DNA from: Candidatus Deferrimicrobium sp.
GTDB taxonomy: Archaea > Asgardarchaeota > Lokiarchaeia > Helarchaeales > HEL-GB-A
Assembly (NCBI GenBank): GCA_035531115.1
Contig: DATKTP010000169.1
Span: 1-10,532, forward strand
DNA: 10,532 nt
Direction of reading: 5' to 3'
Below, piece after piece: positions 287 to 10,044 of this stretch. The stretch's first letter is position 1, and every line of letters begins with the position of its first letter. The notes beneath the pieces are model-generated. The model was not told the origin of the DNA, searched no databases, and saw nothing but the letters and a program-made list of their open reading frames with translations. The position numbers and the translations under genes are program-made.

Positions 287-808
287 TTATTTATTCCTCA
301 ACCTATGAATTATTGTCTTAATGATTTTTTCGAAAGCAGCTTCTACCTGCACCCCAGTTTTTGCGGAAGTTTCAATATATTCTATCGCTTTCAATTCAGT
401 TGCAAGTTTTTTTCCCTCTTCTTCAGAAATAACCCGCTGATCCGTCAAGTCTGCTTTATTCCCAACGAGAATAAAAGGAACATCACCCGCAAAGGTTATC
501 AGTTCCTTCAACCATGCTCTAATATGATCAAATGTCGCTTTCTGGGTAAGGTCAAATAAGAGAAGCGCTCCATTTGTACCTTGTAAATATTCCTCGCGAA
601 TCGTCTCAAATATTGTCTGACCTGCTAAATCCCAAATAAGCAATTCTGCTTCTATTCCTTCCTCTTGGATCTTAATGGTTTTCAACGCGATATCAAAGCC
701 AATGGTAGGTTTATATTCCTCAATAAATCGCTTATCCACATGGCGGATTATCATTGAAGTCTTTCCTACCGCACCATCTCCTAATACACAAAGCTTCAAA
801 ATATGCAT
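287..808 (-). CDS. Ras/Rab-like small GTPase (173 aa)
   Basis: All G-boxes are present: G1 GDGAVGKT, switch I YKPTIGFD, G3 WDLAGQ, G4 GNKAD, G5 ETSAK. AGAGGA lies about 10 nt upstream of the ATG. There is no C-terminal Cys prenylation motif (the protein ends RLRNK). Confidence 0.9.
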   Translation of the reverse strand: MHILKLCVLGDGAVGKTSMIIRHVDKRFIEEYKPTIGFDIALKTIKIQEEGIEAELLIWDLAGQTIFETIREEYLQGTNGALLLFDLTQKATFDHIRAWLKELITFAGDVPFILVGNKADLTDQRVISEEEGKKLATELKAIEYIETSAKTGVQVEAAFEKIIKTIIHRLRNK

Positions 809-6226: not shown

Positions 6227-7102
6227 TTACTCTGCAGAACCTTTATCATTTTCTTGAATATCTGTCTCTGGTTTAGTATCTGATTCCTTTTCAGGGAGTG
6301 GACCTTTAATGAGCTCTTCTACCTTTTTCACTTTTTTTCTTTTAACTTCTTCTTTAGGTTCTTCTACGAGTTCTTCTTCAGGCAATTCCTCAGGTGCTTC
6401 TTCTAAGTCTTCTTCCGCTTCTCCTTCTTCTTTTGTGCCAATCTTTTCTAAAATCTTCTTTTGATCACCTATAATATCGTAACTTATCGCAGCTCTTGAC
6501 TGGAAACTGTTCATATCGATGTTGAAATCTTCAGGTTTTCCAATTTCCCCTTTATCTAGCAGCGCCGACCTTGTGAGTAACCAGAAAAGTAACGCGAGGG
6601 CTTTTCTGCCACGATTATTCGCTGGAACACATAAGTCTATATTGCCCATGTTATTATCGGTATCACAGAAACTGATGACAGGAATTTTTGCAATTTTCGC
6701 TTCCTTTAAGGCTTGTTTATCGGCTCGCGGATCGGTGATTACTAGTAGATCACATTCAATAAAACTGCGTGCATTAGGATTCGTCAATGTGCCAGGAACA
6801 AATCTGCCAGGAATTGCATGACTACCAATTAACCGCGCAAATTGTTGAATAGGATTATGCCCATAACGCCGCGCAGAAACAATCACGATTCGATCTGGAT
6901 CAAATCGTGAAATAAACTTAGAGGCAATGCGCATTCGTTCGTCAGTCTTTCTGATATCAATTACATAGAGCCCTGCTCTTGTAATTCGATAAATAAATTC
7001 TTCCATATCCTTAGTTTTAATCTGGGTTCCTATATGAATACCTGCGGCCAAGTACTGATCTCGGGGTAATAAGAGATCATCCTCTTTTACTTCTTCCGTC
7101 AT
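6227..7102 (-). CDS. rps2: 30S ribosomal protein uS2 (S2/SA type) with a long charged C-terminal extension (291 aa)
   Basis: The core LLAAGIHIGTQ...YVIDIRKT...IVIVSAR...GRFVPGTLTNP...LLVITDPRADKQALKEA..IPVISFCDTDN is the archaeal/eukaryotic uS2 fold. Residues from about 205 to 291 are E/K/P-rich low complexity. Confidence 0.93.
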   Translation of the reverse strand: MTEEVKEDDLLLPRDQYLAAGIHIGTQIKTKDMEEFIYRITRAGLYVIDIRKTDERMRIASKFISRFDPDRIVIVSARRYGHNPIQQFARLIGSHAIPGRFVPGTLTNPNARSFIECDLLVITDPRADKQALKEAKIAKIPVISFCDTDNNMGNIDLCVPANNRGRKALALLFWLLTRSALLDKGEIGKPEDFNIDMNSFQSRAAISYDIIGDQKKILEKIGTKEEGEAEEDLEEAPEELPEEELVEEPKEEVKRKKVKKVEELIKGPLPEKESDTKPETDIQENDKGSAE

Positions 7103-9061: not shown

Positions 9062-9178
9062 ATAACTAATCTTCTGTATGAAAATTTTTAATAGCGGGTA
9101 TTATTAAATATTTCTAAGGTAGAAAAAAGTTCCTTTTTACACCGCCCCCCCTACAATGGACCCTCTGTGAAAAACGGT

Positions 9179-9251
9179 GCCTCGGTAGCTCAGTCGGTGG
9201 AGCGATAGACTTGTAATCTATTGGTCGGGGGTTCAATTCCCCCTCGAGGCT
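9179..9251 (+). tRNA. tRNA-Thr (anticodon UGU), 73 nt, intronless
   Basis: GCCTCGG-TA-GCTC-AGTCGGTG-GAGC-G-ATAGA-CTTGTAA-TCTAT-TGGTC-GGGGG-TTCAATT-CCCCC-TCGAGGC-T. This is a complete cloverleaf with one G7-U66 wobble. No CCA is encoded. Confidence 0.95.
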
Positions 9252-9438
9252 TCCTTCTTCTTAAGCACGAAGAACATATAATACATTTACATGCATGAAA
9301 CTCCCTGCTCTGGTCTTCAAATCCTCGTTGTATCTATTGAAACGGTATTTAATACAAAAATTATTCCTTCTATCTCATTAATAAAATTAGAACAAATGTT
9401 GCAATCCTTGTACAAGAATGCCTCATTTTATAGTGAAA

Positions 9439-9543
9439 TGGGCCGGATGGGATTTGAACCCACGACCTCTGGTTCCCAAAACCAGAATCTTCGCCAACTC
9501 AGGCAGAAATACCTGACTCTATACCAAACTAGACCACCGACCC
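9439..9543 (-). tRNA. tRNA-Pro (anticodon UGG), 105 nt, with a ~30-nt intron in the D-arm
   Basis: GGGTCGG-TG-GTCT-AGTTTGGTAT-AGA[~30 nt, ~9488-9517]T-T-CTGGT-TTTGGGA-ACCAG-AGGTC-GTGGG-TTCAAAT-CCCAT-CCGGCCC-A. The intron boundary is ambiguous within a duplicated AGA. The mature length would be 75 nt. Confidence 0.85.
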
Positions 9544-9552
9544 AATGAAAGA

Positions 9553-9723
9553 TGGGGATGAAGGGATTTGAACCCTTGATTATTACTCGAAATACCCTTT
9601 TCCTGGGTATCTCCCTGGGTCTCGCCAGGAATCGCTCCAGAACCTCGTCATCCTTGCGTCAGCAGACCCTAGTTCTAAAATCCTTCTGGAGCCCAGCATC
9701 TTGCCTGGCTTGATTACATCCCC
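9553..9723 (-). tRNA. tRNA-Trp (anticodon CCA), 171 nt, with a 77-nt intron at 37/38 and a ~20-nt intron near the variable-loop/T-stem boundary
   Basis: GGGGATG-TA-ATC-AAGCCAGGCAA-GAT-G-CTGGG-CTCCAG-[77 nt, 9609-9685]-A-CCCAG-GAAAA-[~20 nt, ~9578-9597]-AAGGG-TTCAAAT-CCCTT-CATCCCC-A. The 3' splice site fits BHB geometry: CTCC (positions 32-35) pairs with GGAG, then comes the 3-nt bulge ATA, then the CCCAG stem. The gene ends 9 nt upstream of tRNA-Pro, so the two are probably co-transcribed. Confidence 0.8.
9609..9685 (-). ncRNA. tRNA-Trp intron with box C/D-like guide architecture (internal D'/C' pair good, terminal boxes degenerate)
   Basis: The intron reads AAGGATTTTAG-AACTAGGGTCTG-CTGA-CGCAAGG-ATGACGA-GGTTCTGGAGCG-ATTC-.... 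CTGA (9659-9662) and ATGACGA (9645-9651) are 7 nt apart, like a D'/C' K-loop. Each is flanked by a 12-nt element complementary to the tRNA-Trp anticodon arm. Confidence 0.5.
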
Positions 9724-9996
9724 TTGCGAGAATCATACTGCCATATCTGAAATGAGATCTGACCATACGAGAACCACTTTGCCATACCCAGGAGGGTCGC
9801 TCTCGCCTCTTCTTTCCTCGAAAGAAAGGTAAATCTCAAATGGAGTATATCTTGCTAGAATGGTGGAAGCTCTCTATTAAAAAGATTCTCCCCTCATTTG
9901 TATTTAGATTTTTTTATAAAAATAATTTTCATTGTAAAAATTTATTTAAAAATTTGATTTAAACGGAAGATCGATGAGGGAACATCAATAATTTCA

Positions 9997-10044
9997 GGGA
10001 GAAGCGAAGAGAGAAGGAGAAGAAGAAAGAGAAGCGAGAAGGGA
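9997..10044. repeat. 48-nt polypurine (plus) / polypyrimidine (minus) tract, imperfect mirror repeat
   Basis: gggagaagcgaagagagaaggagaagaagaaagagaagcgagaaggga has 46 of 48 purines and contains gagaagcga twice. On the minus strand it is a C/U-rich run immediately 3' of the 5S trailer helix. Confidence 0.9.

What the first reader, a model, noticed from the sequence alone, without database searches (positions are those of the whole stretch)
9609..9685. tRNA-Trp intron carries box C/D-like guides that map by the N+5 rule to positions 34 and 39 of its own tRNA
Seen: the 77-nt intron has the layout [11 nt]-12 nt guide-CTGA-7 nt-ATGACGA-12 nt guide-ATTC. The guide upstream of CTGA (AACTAGGGTCTG) pairs with C35-C41 (CAGACCC) across the spliced junction. 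The fifth guide nucleotide upstream of CTGA pairs with C39. The second guide (GGTTCTGGAGCG) pairs with G31-A38 (GCTCCAGA). The fifth nucleotide upstream of its 3' boundary pairs with C34. Established: in Haloferax volcanii and other Euryarchaeota the pre-tRNA-Trp intron is a box C/D RNA that directs 2'-O-methylation of exactly C34 and U39. What is unusual here: the internal D'/C' pair is good (one mismatch to RUGAUGA). The terminal boxes, however, are unrecognisable (ATTTTAG in place of box C, ATTC in place of CUGA). An AGGA/TCCT stem sits where the terminal K-turn would be. The element may be a decaying guide, a single-K-loop variant, or a lineage-specific box variant.
Basis: partly seen in the sequence, partly recalled or inferred. 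Interest (0 to 1): 0.65.

Follow-up and report, generated by a model that had tools for sequence, protein, structure and literature searches.

The report
tRNA-Trp intron: one-K-loop methylation guide
The intron of a tRNA-Trp gene from an Asgard (Helarchaeota-like) archaeon carries a strongly conserved half-set of box C/D signals and two antisense stretches aimed at tRNA positions 34 and 39, with a plain helix where the second signal pair should be, which makes it a candidate natural example of a guide-RNA design so far shown to work only as an engineered construct.

Summary
One detail is wrong. Twelve orthologues show the anticodon-loop intron is 65 nt (9685-9621), not 77 nt. The extra 12 nt belong to a 6-nt micro-exon and a second intron at tRNA position 43/44.

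The core (GGGUCUG-CUGA-CGnnAGG-AUGACGA-12-nt spacer) is 95% identical across the orthologues. That is more conserved than the tRNA exons (89%); flanking intron segments are about 51-59%. It is therefore not decaying.

No orthologue has terminal C or D boxes. The AGGA/UCCU stem is the outer helix (h') of a canonical bulge-helix-bulge splice motif.

The 12-nt spacer after C' pairs through its nucleotides 2-11 with the pre-tRNA 5' exon-intron junction. Nucleotide 5 faces C34. The spacer before D' pairs over 6-7 bp, and its nucleotide 5 faces C39.

This is the architecture of the engineered guide BMG1 (Wang, Yang & Ye 2022). BMG1 has its terminal C/D motif replaced by a 4-bp stem and is active at both sites with Sulfolobus proteins. 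Those authors left open whether natural versions exist.

No expression or methylation data exist. Verdict: a new variant of the known tRNA-Trp intron guide. Function is inferred, at about 0.6.

The parts
9553..9723 (-). tRNA-Trp(CCA) gene with two introns. Exons are 9723-9686, 9620-9615 and 9582-9553, giving a 74-nt mature tRNA.
   Evidence: ARAGORN -i; Rfam tRNA 40.8 bits; exon structure from the 12-orthologue alignment and the BHB search.
9621..9685 (-). Intron 1, 65 nt, at the canonical position 37/38. This is the guide-like element.
   Evidence: Conserved 3' end UCCUGGCGAG|ACCCAG in the orthologues. hBHBh' geometry is compatible in all of them.
9681..9684 (-). AGGA, 5' strand of the terminal stem. 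It is the BHB outer helix h' and sits where box C would be.
   Evidence: Pairs with UCCU: three of the four pairs hold in 12/12 orthologues and the fourth (A5-U) in 10/12. The next two positions (9680-9679) pair only in about half of the orthologues.
9663..9674 (-). The 12 nt upstream of D' (AACTAGGGTCTG). The antisense core GGGTCTG (9669-9663) faces C41-C35, and nucleotide 5 upstream of D' (9667) faces C39.
   Evidence: The core is conserved in 10/12 orthologues (L009 has GGTCTG, L031 has GGGTCTA). Duplex -13.1 kcal/mol with spliced tRNA and -11.4 with pre-tRNA in most orthologues; -13.6 and -11.9 in the window.
9659..9662 (-). Box D' (CTGA).
   Evidence: Invariant in 12/12 orthologues.
9652..9658 (-). 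7-nt loop of the K-loop (CGCAAGG; consensus CGnnAGG).
   Evidence: The third loop nucleotide also varies in a strain variant from run X4.
9645..9651 (-). Box C' (ATGACGA; one mismatch to RUGAUGA, giving C.U in place of U.U).
   Evidence: Invariant in 12/12 orthologues.
9633..9644 (-). 12-nt D-type spacer (GGTTCTGGAGCG; consensus GCUUUUGGAGCG). Counting nucleotide 1 from the stem end, nucleotides 2-11 pair with G31-G37 plus intron A1 A2 G3. Nucleotide 5 (9637) faces C34.
   Evidence: The duplex is 10 bp and -17.1 to -17.3 kcal/mol in 11 orthologues. In the window it is 9 bp and -16.5 with pre-tRNA, and -19.1 with spliced tRNA.
9627..9632 (-). ATTCCT, 3' strand of the terminal stem. ATTC occupies the box D position ('segment D' in BMG terms). 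TCCT (9630-9627) pairs with AGGA.
   Evidence: structural analogy from PMC9670817.
9621..9626 (-). GGCG (9626-9623) is the BHB central helix strand that pairs with C32 U33 C34 C35, with one U.C mismatch. AG (9622-9621) are the two intron nucleotides of the 3' bulge AG|A38.
   Evidence: three of the four pairs hold (two in 12/12, one in 11/12). The U33 pair is mismatched in all 12.
9615..9620 (-). 6-nt micro-exon ACCCAG (tRNA positions 38-43).
   Evidence: Invariant in the alignment.
9583..9614 (-). Intron 2, 32 nt, between tRNA positions 43 and 44. It is not part of the guide.
   Evidence: Best consistent BHB in the orthologues: central helix ACCC/nGGU, bulges AG|G and AA|U, and a 6-8 bp hairpin in most. 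The hairpin covaries.

Best explanation
The 65-nt anticodon-loop intron of this Helarchaeota-like tRNA-Trp is most likely an RNA guide for 2'-O-methylation of its own tRNA at C34 and C39. It would be a functional counterpart of the euryarchaeal pre-tRNA-Trp box C/D intron, built with only one kink motif.

Proposed mechanism (all steps inferred):
1. The splicing endonuclease cuts at a canonical bulge-helix-bulge motif. The excised intron keeps the 4-6 bp terminal stem AGGA(nn)/(nn)UCCU and is probably circularised.
2. L7Ae binds the internal K-loop (D' CUGA, 7-nt loop, C' AUGACGA).
3. A Nop5-fibrillarin dimer docks on the K-loop at one end and directly on the plain stem at the other. This is what happens in the engineered guide BMG1.
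4. The 12-nt spacer between C' and the stem pairs through its nucleotides 2-11 with another pre-tRNA-Trp molecule, across the 5' exon-intron junction. That places C34 at position 5.
5. The spacer upstream of D' pairs over 6-7 bp with A36/C35-C41, which places C39 at position 5.

The weak duplex is the one coupled to the L7Ae-binding K-loop. The strong duplex is the one coupled to the protein-free stem.

Shown here: the sequence features, their registers and their conservation. Inferred: RNP assembly, action in trans, circularisation and methylation.
For: 1. Anatomy is as described.

2. Twelve distinct orthologues were retrieved without using the intron as query. They came from synteny with DnaG and from an exon-only pattern. 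All carry the same intron.

3. Mean pairwise identity by region: core 0.949, exon 1 0.886, T-arm and acceptor 0.736, variable intron segment 0.508, intron 2 0.592. The upstream flanks cannot be aligned.

4. A strain variant in run X4 differs only at variable positions.

5. Minimum-energy folds of the intron alone differ between orthologues. The conservation is therefore of sequence, as expected for boxes and antisense elements, and not of an internal fold.

6. The K-loop motif is rare by chance (5.8e-4 per shuffled intron). It was found nowhere else in 153 kb of related DNA.

7. The registers fit the RNP ruler reported for archaeal C/D and C/D-free RNPs. In that structure the spacer is 12 nt, nucleotides 1 and 12 are unpaired, nucleotides 2-11 form a 10-bp duplex, and the target is at nucleotide 5 (PMC9670817). 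In 11 of 12 orthologues the spacer after C' does exactly this on the pre-tRNA, with C34 at nucleotide 5.

8. BMG1 has its terminal C/D replaced by a 4-bp stem and keeps the internal C'/D'. It guided methylation at both sites with Sulfolobus proteins. The stem-coupled spacer did not need L7Ae. L7Ae mattered for weakly paired substrates.

9. Positions 34 and 39 are the sites guided by the Haloferax intron. Cm34 is present in S. acidocaldarius tRNA-Trp. The S. solfataricus intron is also 65 nt, is a stable circle and lacks consensus boxes.
Against: There is no RNA evidence. No RNA run holds the locus, so expression, circularisation and methylation are all untested.

The 39-directed duplex is only 6-7 bp. 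The shortest substrates tested in vitro were 8 bp.

The spacer upstream of D' is 13-15 nt measured from the stem, not 12 nt.

The two stem pairs nearest the spacers form in only about half of the orthologues. If only AGGA/UCCU counts as the stem, the spacer is 14 nt and position 5 would face C32 instead of C34.

The anticodon arm and the guides never vary, so there is no guide-target covariation. Shuffle controls show no significant covariation for the stems.

All orthologues belong to one clade (DnaG 67-77% identical).

No canonical C/D sRNA was found in 153 kb, so the lineage's own box consensus is unknown.

Presence of L7Ae, Nop5 and fibrillarin genes in this genome was not checked. I assume it from their general occurrence in Archaea.

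The 10-bp pairing is also the predicted lowest-energy fold in cis. It could therefore serve folding rather than guiding.
Confidence: 0.6

Rival explanations
1. The element controls folding or splicing and is not a methylation guide. The conserved UUUUGGAGC stretch pairs in cis with the 5' splice junction, and GGGUCU pairs with AGACCC at the 3' junction. This would hold the pre-tRNA in a conformer that competes with the two overlapping BHB motifs and so sets the order or timing of removal of the two introns. The K-loop would recruit L7Ae only as an RNA chaperone or stabiliser.
For: RNAalifold puts the 10-bp pairing of spacer with 5' junction into the consensus minimum-energy structure of the pre-tRNA. 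The BHB of intron 2 uses A38-C41, so the BHBs and the anticodon stem compete. From my memory of Bortolin et al. 2003, not re-read here, mutually exclusive splicing and guide conformers are described for the euryarchaeal pre-tRNA-Trp.
Against: This does not explain why the pairing sits exactly at spacer nucleotides 2-11 of a 12-nt spacer after a C' box. It does not explain why position 5 falls on 34 and 39, the sites methylated in Haloferax. It does not explain why CUGA and AUGACGA are invariant. In L009 the 3'-junction pairing in cis is nearly lost (-2.7 kcal/mol) while pairing to the spliced tRNA is kept (-9.4).
Confidence: 0.2
2. Only half of the element works. The K-loop with its upstream spacer guides Cm39 (or the stem-coupled spacer guides Cm34/Cm32), and the other antisense stretch is kept for a different reason, such as substrate capture.
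For: Half-mer C/D RNAs with a single K-turn or K-loop are active and specific in holo-RNPs in vitro. The proximal stem pairs are imperfect.
Against: Both antisense stretches are equally invariant. BMG1 shows that both sites can work with this architecture.
Confidence: 0.1
3. The element is a relic: a former two-K-turn box C/D intron that has lost its terminal boxes and is decaying.
For: The terminal boxes are absent. The intron and its methylations are dispensable in Haloferax under standard conditions.
Against: The core is 95% identical across orthologues whose neutral flanks are saturated. It is more conserved than the exons. All differences in a strain variant avoid the boxes and the antisense cores.
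Confidence: 0.05
4. The resemblance is chance. Intron-exon complementarity is required for the BHB anyway, and CUGA/AUGACGA is fortuitous.
For: Some 7-mer complementarity to the anticodon arm occurs in 4.5% of shuffled introns.
Against: The BHB uses other nucleotides (GGCG and UCCU), not the two spacers. The K-loop motif occurs in 0.06% of shuffles. It is invariant in 12/12 orthologues and absent elsewhere in 153 kb.
Confidence: 0.01

Closest known systems
Euryarchaeal pre-tRNA-Trp intron box C/D RNA (Haloferax volcanii 103-105-nt intron; Pyrococcus sR50)
   Same: Same host gene and same intron position (37/38). It is embedded in a BHB splice motif. It has two antisense elements aimed at positions 34 and 39 of its own tRNA. 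The internal D'/C' motif is present. The known intron acts in trans and is a stable circle.
   Different: The euryarchaeal intron has both a terminal C/D and an internal C'/D' motif. Here the terminal pair is absent in all 12 orthologues and a plain 4-6 bp helix (the BHB h') stands in its place. The intron here is shorter (65 nt). Position 39 is C, not U. The host is an Asgard archaeon. Homology versus convergence is therefore open.
Sulfolobus solfataricus tRNA-Trp intron (Danan et al. 2012, PMC3326292)
   Same: The length is identical (65 nt). There are no consensus terminal C and D boxes. Two short (7-bp) complementarities are aimed at positions 34 and 39. That intron is a highly stable circle. 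Cm34 is present in S. acidocaldarius tRNA-Trp.
   Different: The authors report that no consensus C or D boxes can be found in it. The element here keeps a near-canonical D'/C' K-loop and a 10-bp duplex for position 34.
Engineered guide BMG1, and BMG2/BMG3 (Wang, Yang & Ye 2022, RNA 28:1597, PMC9670817)
   Same: [quoted passage not shown] In BMG1 both sites are methylated by Sulfolobus Nop5/fibrillarin, and the stem-coupled site does not need L7Ae.
   Different: BMG1 is synthetic and was derived from a trans-acting sRNA. The element here is natural, sits in a tRNA intron, and its stem doubles as a splice-site helix. Its proximal stem pairs are imperfect. Its other spacer is 13-15 nt and pairs over only 6-7 bp. 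No activity has been shown.
Canonical archaeal box C/D sRNAs
   Same: The size falls in the 60-70 nt range. It has a CUGA and RUGAUGA-like K-loop with a 7-nt linker. One spacer is 12 nt. The antisense elements obey the position-5 rule (for the family definition).
   Different: The terminal box C/box D K-turn that defines the family is missing. There is only one L7Ae site.

Membership tests
Box C/D guide RNA (archaeal sRNA) | Box C (RUGAUGA) near the 5' end | tested here: not met
   The 7 nt that would precede a 12-nt spacer are ATTTTAG in the window and differ in every orthologue.
Box C/D guide RNA (archaeal sRNA) | Box D (CUGA) near the 3' end, forming a terminal K-turn with box C | tested here: not met
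   The box D position holds ATTC, GATC, CTTC, GGCC or TGTC. I found no tandem G.A arrangement next to the stem by inspection.
Box C/D guide RNA (archaeal sRNA) | Internal D' (CUGA) and C' (RUGAUGA) forming a K-loop | tested here: met
   CTGA-N7-ATGACGA is invariant in 12/12 orthologues. There is one mismatch, C.U in place of U.U. The bulge U and both G.A pairs are possible. The motif is rare by chance.
Box C/D guide RNA (archaeal sRNA) | Spacers of about 12 nt | tested here: inconclusive
   From C' to the box D position is exactly 12 nt in all 12 orthologues. If only AGGA/UCCU counts as the stem, it is 14 nt. From the stem to D' is 13-15 nt.
Box C/D guide RNA (archaeal sRNA) | Antisense element with the target at the 5th nucleotide upstream of D or D' | tested here: met
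   Upstream of D': 6-7 bp, with position 5 facing C39. Spacer after C': 10 bp on the pre-tRNA (8 bp on spliced tRNA), with position 5 facing C34.
Box C/D guide RNA (archaeal sRNA) | Assembly with L7Ae, Nop5 and fibrillarin, and site-specific 2'-O-methylation | not testable with these tools
   No RNA runs hold the locus. This needs biochemistry or RiboMeth-seq.
tRNA-Trp intron guide (euryarchaeal type) | Located in the tRNA-Trp intron at 37/38, flanked by an hBHBh' motif | tested here: met
   The BHB has a 5-bp anticodon stem, bulges AG|A and AG|A, a 4-position central helix with one mismatch, and the h' helix AGGA/UCCU.
tRNA-Trp intron guide (euryarchaeal type) | Guides aimed at positions 34 and 39 of the same tRNA | tested here: met
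.
tRNA-Trp intron guide (euryarchaeal type) | Sequence homology to euryarchaeal or Sulfolobus tRNA-Trp introns | not tested
   No such sequences could be fetched. No Rfam family matched the intron at E <= 10.
Stem-substituted methylation guide (BMG1 type, so far only engineered) | Terminal C/D replaced by a duplex of at least 4 bp that abuts both spacers | tested here: inconclusive
   In AGGA/UCCU three pairs hold in 12/12 orthologues and A5-U in 10/12. The two pairs that abut the spacers form in only 5/12 and 6/11 orthologues, which is no better than shuffled controls.
Stem-substituted methylation guide (BMG1 type, so far only engineered) | Internal C'/D' retained; 12-nt spacer with nucleotides 2-11 paired to the substrate | tested here: met
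   compared with the structural description.

The most novel reading that the evidence does not exclude
This is the first natural methylation guide RNA in which one of the two defining C/D kink-turn motifs is replaced by a plain helix, the 'BMG1-like' form that Wang, Yang & Ye (2022) built and explicitly left as an open question for nature. In this reading the helix is shared with the tRNA splicing motif, so one 4-6 bp stem serves both the splicing endonuclease and Nop5. L7Ae would be needed only for the weakly paired site (C39). The 10-bp site (C34) would run without L7Ae. If the boxless 65-nt Sulfolobus intron is related, this would be an old design shared by TACK and Asgard archaea, not a lineage quirk.
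Probability: 0.45. Interest if true: 0.72.

Novelty: new variant of a known kind. Interest (0 to 1): 0.58.

Why it matters
Box C/D guide RNAs are defined by two kink-turn motifs bound by L7Ae. In-vitro engineering showed that archaeal Nop5-fibrillarin can use a plain stem instead, and its authors left open whether such guides exist in nature.

This intron gives a concrete, conserved natural candidate with exactly that architecture. The idea is directly testable by reconstituting the 65-nt RNA with L7Ae/Nop5/fibrillarin and mapping Nm34 and Nm39.

It would also extend intron-encoded tRNA-Trp methylation guides from Euryarchaeota to Asgard archaea, alongside a boxless candidate in Sulfolobus. 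It suggests that box-based sRNA finders miss a class of guides.

It shows how one helix can be shared between splicing and RNP assembly.

On the practical side, tRNA finders mis-set intron boundaries in Asgard tRNAs that have several introns.

Tried and rejected
I therefore could not fetch tRNA-Trp genes from other Asgard orders, Sulfolobus or Euryarchaeota.

2. Loki-type DnaG loci (L012, L013) and the three loci hold no tRNA-Trp. Synteny stops at the Helarchaeota-like clade.

3. There is no RNA evidence. The look-up of sequencing runs found five DNA metagenomes and no RNA run.

4. The primary papers were not held: Clouet d'Orval 2001, Bortolin 2003 and Joardar 2008. I used reviews and later papers instead.

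5. An Rfam scan of 9100-10000 at E <= 10 gave no snoRNA or sRNA family on the intron.

6. A regular-expression scan for canonical C/D sRNAs in 153 kb of related DNA found none, and none in shuffles either. The lineage's own box consensus stays unknown.

7. A conserved fold of the intron alone is rejected. Minimum-energy structures differ between orthologues.

8. A stem between the A-rich segment and the U-tract of the spacer, and a 2-bp extension of h', showed no covariation beyond the shuffle controls.

9. I looked by eye for a hidden terminal K-turn in four places: the D-stem ATGATGC in exon 1, the circular junction GAG^AAGGA, GA dinucleotides next to UCCU, and CUGA in intron 2. None is conserved across the orthologues.

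10. The 77-nt intron reading is rejected on comparative grounds.
Full report
**What is in the window**

The window is archaeal and has about 38% G+C. It encodes a Ras/Rab-like small GTPase, an ArsR-type regulator, a radical-SAM protein, an acyl-CoA dehydrogenase, ribosomal protein uS2 and primase DnaG. The closest named DnaG relatives are 'Candidatus Helarchaeota' at 74-77% identity. The organism is therefore an Asgard archaeon of the Helarchaeota type.

Three tRNA genes follow DnaG:
- tRNA-Thr(UGU), 9179-9251, plus strand.
- tRNA-Pro(UGG), about 9543-9439, minus strand.
- tRNA-Trp(CCA), 9723-9553, minus strand.

**Checking the observation**

Four points hold:
- GGGTCTG is the complement of C35-C41 of the spliced tRNA. 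Its fifth nucleotide upstream of CTGA faces C39.
- TCTGGAGC is the complement of G31-A38. The fifth nucleotide from the 3' end of the 12-nt stretch faces C34.
- ATGACGA differs from RUGAUGA at one position.
- There is no terminal box C or D, and AGGA and TCCT can pair.

The 77-nt length comes from ARAGORN-like logic, and ARAGORN also reports 77. That boundary does not survive comparison with orthologues.

**Orthologues**

I collected relatives without using the intron as a query. Contigs encoding close DnaG homologues gave five loci with a syntenic tRNA-Trp. A metagenome scan with an exon-only pattern (acceptor start plus anticodon arm) gave 28 stretches. Eight of them are real tRNA-Trp genes (L015, L016, L024, L026, L031, L033, L038, L041) and the rest are chance matches. 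L033 is truncated and L041 is identical to L010, so the scan added six new complete sequences. Every real tRNA-Trp hit carries the same kind of intron. Together with the window this gives 12 distinct sequences (alignment A1).

**Intron boundaries**

In all orthologues the first intron ends ...UCCUGGCGAG|ACCCAG (GGUGAG or GGCGAA in a few). The first intron of the window is therefore 65 nt, 9685-9621.

After the 6-nt block ACCCAG (tRNA positions 38-43) every orthologue has a second insertion of about 30 nt. Its sequence is not conserved, but its hairpin covaries. A search for splice motifs gives one consistent solution: an intron between positions 43 and 44, with central helix ACCC/nGGU, bulges AG|G and AA|U, and a 6-8 bp inner hairpin in most orthologues. 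In the window this second intron is 9614-9583. It leaves a 5-nt variable loop, TAATC.

The second ACCCAGG that misled the 77-nt reading (9608-9602) lies in that hairpin. ARAGORN reports 90, 77 and 93 nt for three orthologues, which shows that its boundaries are unreliable here. Many introns per tRNA, at non-canonical positions, have already been described for other Asgard lineages (PMC11291895).

**The AGGA/UCCU stem**

With the 65-nt boundaries the pre-tRNA forms a textbook hBHBh' motif:
- the anticodon stem (5 bp);
- the 3' bulge A-G|A38;
- a four-position central helix, C32 U33 C34 C35 against GGCG, with one U.C (or U.U) mismatch;
- the 5' bulge A36-G37|A;
- the outer helix AGGA/UCCU.

In AGGA/UCCU three pairs hold in all 12 orthologues and the fourth, A5-U, in 10 of 12. 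The stem 'where the terminal K-turn would be' is thus the h' helix needed by the splicing endonuclease.

**Conservation**

Mean pairwise identity by region:

| Region | Identity |
|---|---|
| Intron core, GGGUCUG to GGAGCG | 0.949 |
| AAGGA | 1.0 |
| 3' end of intron 1, CTGGCGAG | 0.91 |
| Exon 1 | 0.886 |
| T-arm and acceptor | 0.736 |
| Variable segment after AAGGA | 0.508 |
| Linker before UCCU | 0.53 |
| Intron 2 | 0.592 |

The 60 nt upstream of the genes cannot be aligned at all. A strain variant in a marsh metagenome (run X4) differs from the window at four intron positions. All four lie in the variable segment or at the third loop nucleotide.

Minimum-energy folds of the isolated intron, linear or circular, differ from orthologue to orthologue. 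Selection therefore acts on the primary sequence of the boxes and the two antisense stretches, not on an internal fold. This rules out a 'decaying guide'. No orthologue has anything resembling box C or box D at the ends.

**Chance**

The motif CTGA-N3-9-RTGAYGA occurs in 0.06% of shuffled introns. In 153 kb of related DNA, on both strands, it occurs only in the 12 introns.

**Register of the antisense elements**

The family rules are stated in Wang, Yang & Ye 2022 (PMC9670817). Archaeal C/D RNAs are 60-70 nt long and have spacers of about 12 nt. The target pairs with the fifth spacer nucleotide upstream of D or D'. In crystal structures, spacer nucleotides 1 and 12 are unpaired and nucleotides 2-11 form a 10-bp duplex capped by the two Nop5 C-terminal domains.

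In 11 of the 12 orthologues the 12 nt after C' read (G/A)CUUUUGGAGCG. Counting nucleotide 1 from the stem end, nucleotides 2-11 pair with G31-G37 plus the first three intron nucleotides A1 A2 G3. That is a 10-bp duplex of -17.1 to -17.3 kcal/mol. Nucleotides 1 and 12 are unpaired and nucleotide 5 faces C34.

The window's own spacer, GGUUCUGGAGCG, makes 9 bp with the pre-tRNA (-16.5 kcal/mol). With the spliced tRNA it makes 8 + 2 bp (-19.1 kcal/mol).

The spacer upstream of D' pairs over 7 bp with C35-C41 of the spliced tRNA (-13.1 kcal/mol in most orthologues) or over 6 bp with the unspliced 3' junction (-11.4). Nucleotide 5 faces C39. In L009 only the pairing with the spliced form survives (-9.4 against -2.7 kcal/mol).

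**The link to engineered guides**

Wang et al. deleted the terminal C/D motif of a Sulfolobus sRNA while keeping a 4-bp terminal stem and the internal C'/D'. They called the construct BMG1. With Sulfolobus Nop5, fibrillarin and L7Ae, it guided site-specific methylation at both sites. The stem-coupled spacer worked without L7Ae. The K-loop-coupled spacer needed L7Ae. The four stem pairs nearest the spacers take the place of the G.A stem of the K-turn. L7Ae matters mainly for weakly paired substrates.

The intron studied here has that architecture. The division of labour also fits: the weak 6-7 bp duplex is coupled to the K-loop, and the strong 10-bp duplex is coupled to the stem.

**Proposed mechanism (inferred)**

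1. The intron is excised at the BHB. By analogy with Haloferax and Sulfolobus it is probably circularised and stable.
2. L7Ae binds the K-loop.
3. A Nop5-fibrillarin dimer bridges the K-loop and the stem.
4. The RNP methylates C34 on another pre-tRNA-Trp molecule, and C39 on pre-tRNA or spliced tRNA.

Action in trans is likely because the full 10-bp duplex uses intron nucleotides A2 and G3, which are also part of the stem. Trans action is also what reviews report for Haloferax.

From memory, not re-read here: Bortolin et al. 2003 reported that the euryarchaeal pre-tRNA-Trp can be methylated without L7Ae at high Nop5-fibrillarin concentration. That would fit a relaxed need for kink-turns in this system.

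**Weak points**

- No RNA or modification data exist.
- The C39 duplex is shorter than any substrate tested in vitro.
- The other spacer is 13-15 nt long.
- The two stem pairs that abut the spacers form in only about half of the orthologues, no better than shuffled controls. If the effective stem begins at UCCU, the spacer is 14 nt and position 5 would fall on C32.
- Nothing in the anticodon arm or the guides varies, so there is no guide-target covariation.
- All 12 sequences come from one clade.
- The 10-bp pairing is also the predicted lowest-energy fold in cis. A role in folding or splicing order therefore remains a real rival, especially since the BHB of intron 2 uses A38-C41 and must compete with the anticodon stem.

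**Comparison with what is known**

The closest natural systems are two.
- The euryarchaeal pre-tRNA-Trp intron shares the gene, the intron position and the target positions, but has two complete box pairs.
[quoted passage not shown] It has no consensus boxes and has two 7-bp complementarities to positions 34 and 39. Cm34 is present in S. acidocaldarius tRNA-Trp.

The element fails two defining tests of a canonical box C/D RNA, box C and box D. It should not be filed as an ordinary member of that family. It most likely works like one, through the BMG1 route. I rate it a new variant of a known kind.

Noticed in passing
window 9583-9614 (-) and 9615-9620 (-): tRNA-Trp has a second, 32-nt intron between positions 43 and 44. 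It leaves a 6-nt micro-exon, ACCCAG. The position is conserved in all 12 orthologues but the sequence is not, and the hairpin covaries. Its BHB central helix uses A38-C41, the 3' strand of the anticodon stem, so the two splice motifs and the anticodon stem compete. That suggests ordered splicing.
   Followed up: partly
window 9602-9608 (-): A second copy of ACCCAGG sits inside the intron-2 hairpin. It makes ARAGORN call a 77-nt intron, with a perfect CUCC/GGAG central helix but no outer helix. I did not resolve whether this is chance or a small duplication.
   Followed up: partly
L007:5102-5301: This orthologue of tRNA-Trp carries a third intron, about 30 nt, inside the T-loop (GGTTCAAG[AACCAGTGCGATACCTCAACTGGTTGAGA]ATCCC).
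   Followed up: no
window 9439-9543 (-): tRNA-Pro(UGG) starts 9 nt after tRNA-Trp and is probably co-transcribed. It has a non-canonical intron of about 30 nt in the D-arm region. The intron is absent from the L009, L014 and L024 orthologues. Other orthologues (L010, L015, L016, L026, L038) have a different insertion in the D-loop.
   Followed up: no
window 9743-9748 (-): An A/T-rich TATA-like element (AGATAT) lies 20-25 nt upstream of tRNA-Trp. Similar A/T-rich boxes stand at the same distance in most orthologues, although the flanks are otherwise unalignable.
   Followed up: no
window 287-808 (-): A Ras/Rab-family small GTPase (173 aa; Pfam Ras E = 5e-52), typical of Asgard genomes. The same gene order (GTPase, ArsR, radical SAM, acyl-CoA dehydrogenase, uS2, DnaG) is seen in L007 and L010.
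   Followed up: no
window 6227-7102 (-): Ribosomal protein uS2 has a long, highly acidic and lysine-rich C-terminal tail of about 90 aa. The length of this protein varies greatly among the orthologous loci (207-388 aa).
   Followed up: no
L001:5478-5628: ARAGORN calls this gene 'tRNA-Pro with a 76-nt intron'. It reads more like a tRNA-Leu(UAA), with anticodon loop CTTAAGA, carrying several insertions. This is another example of tRNA finders failing on multi-intron Asgard tRNAs.
   Followed up: no
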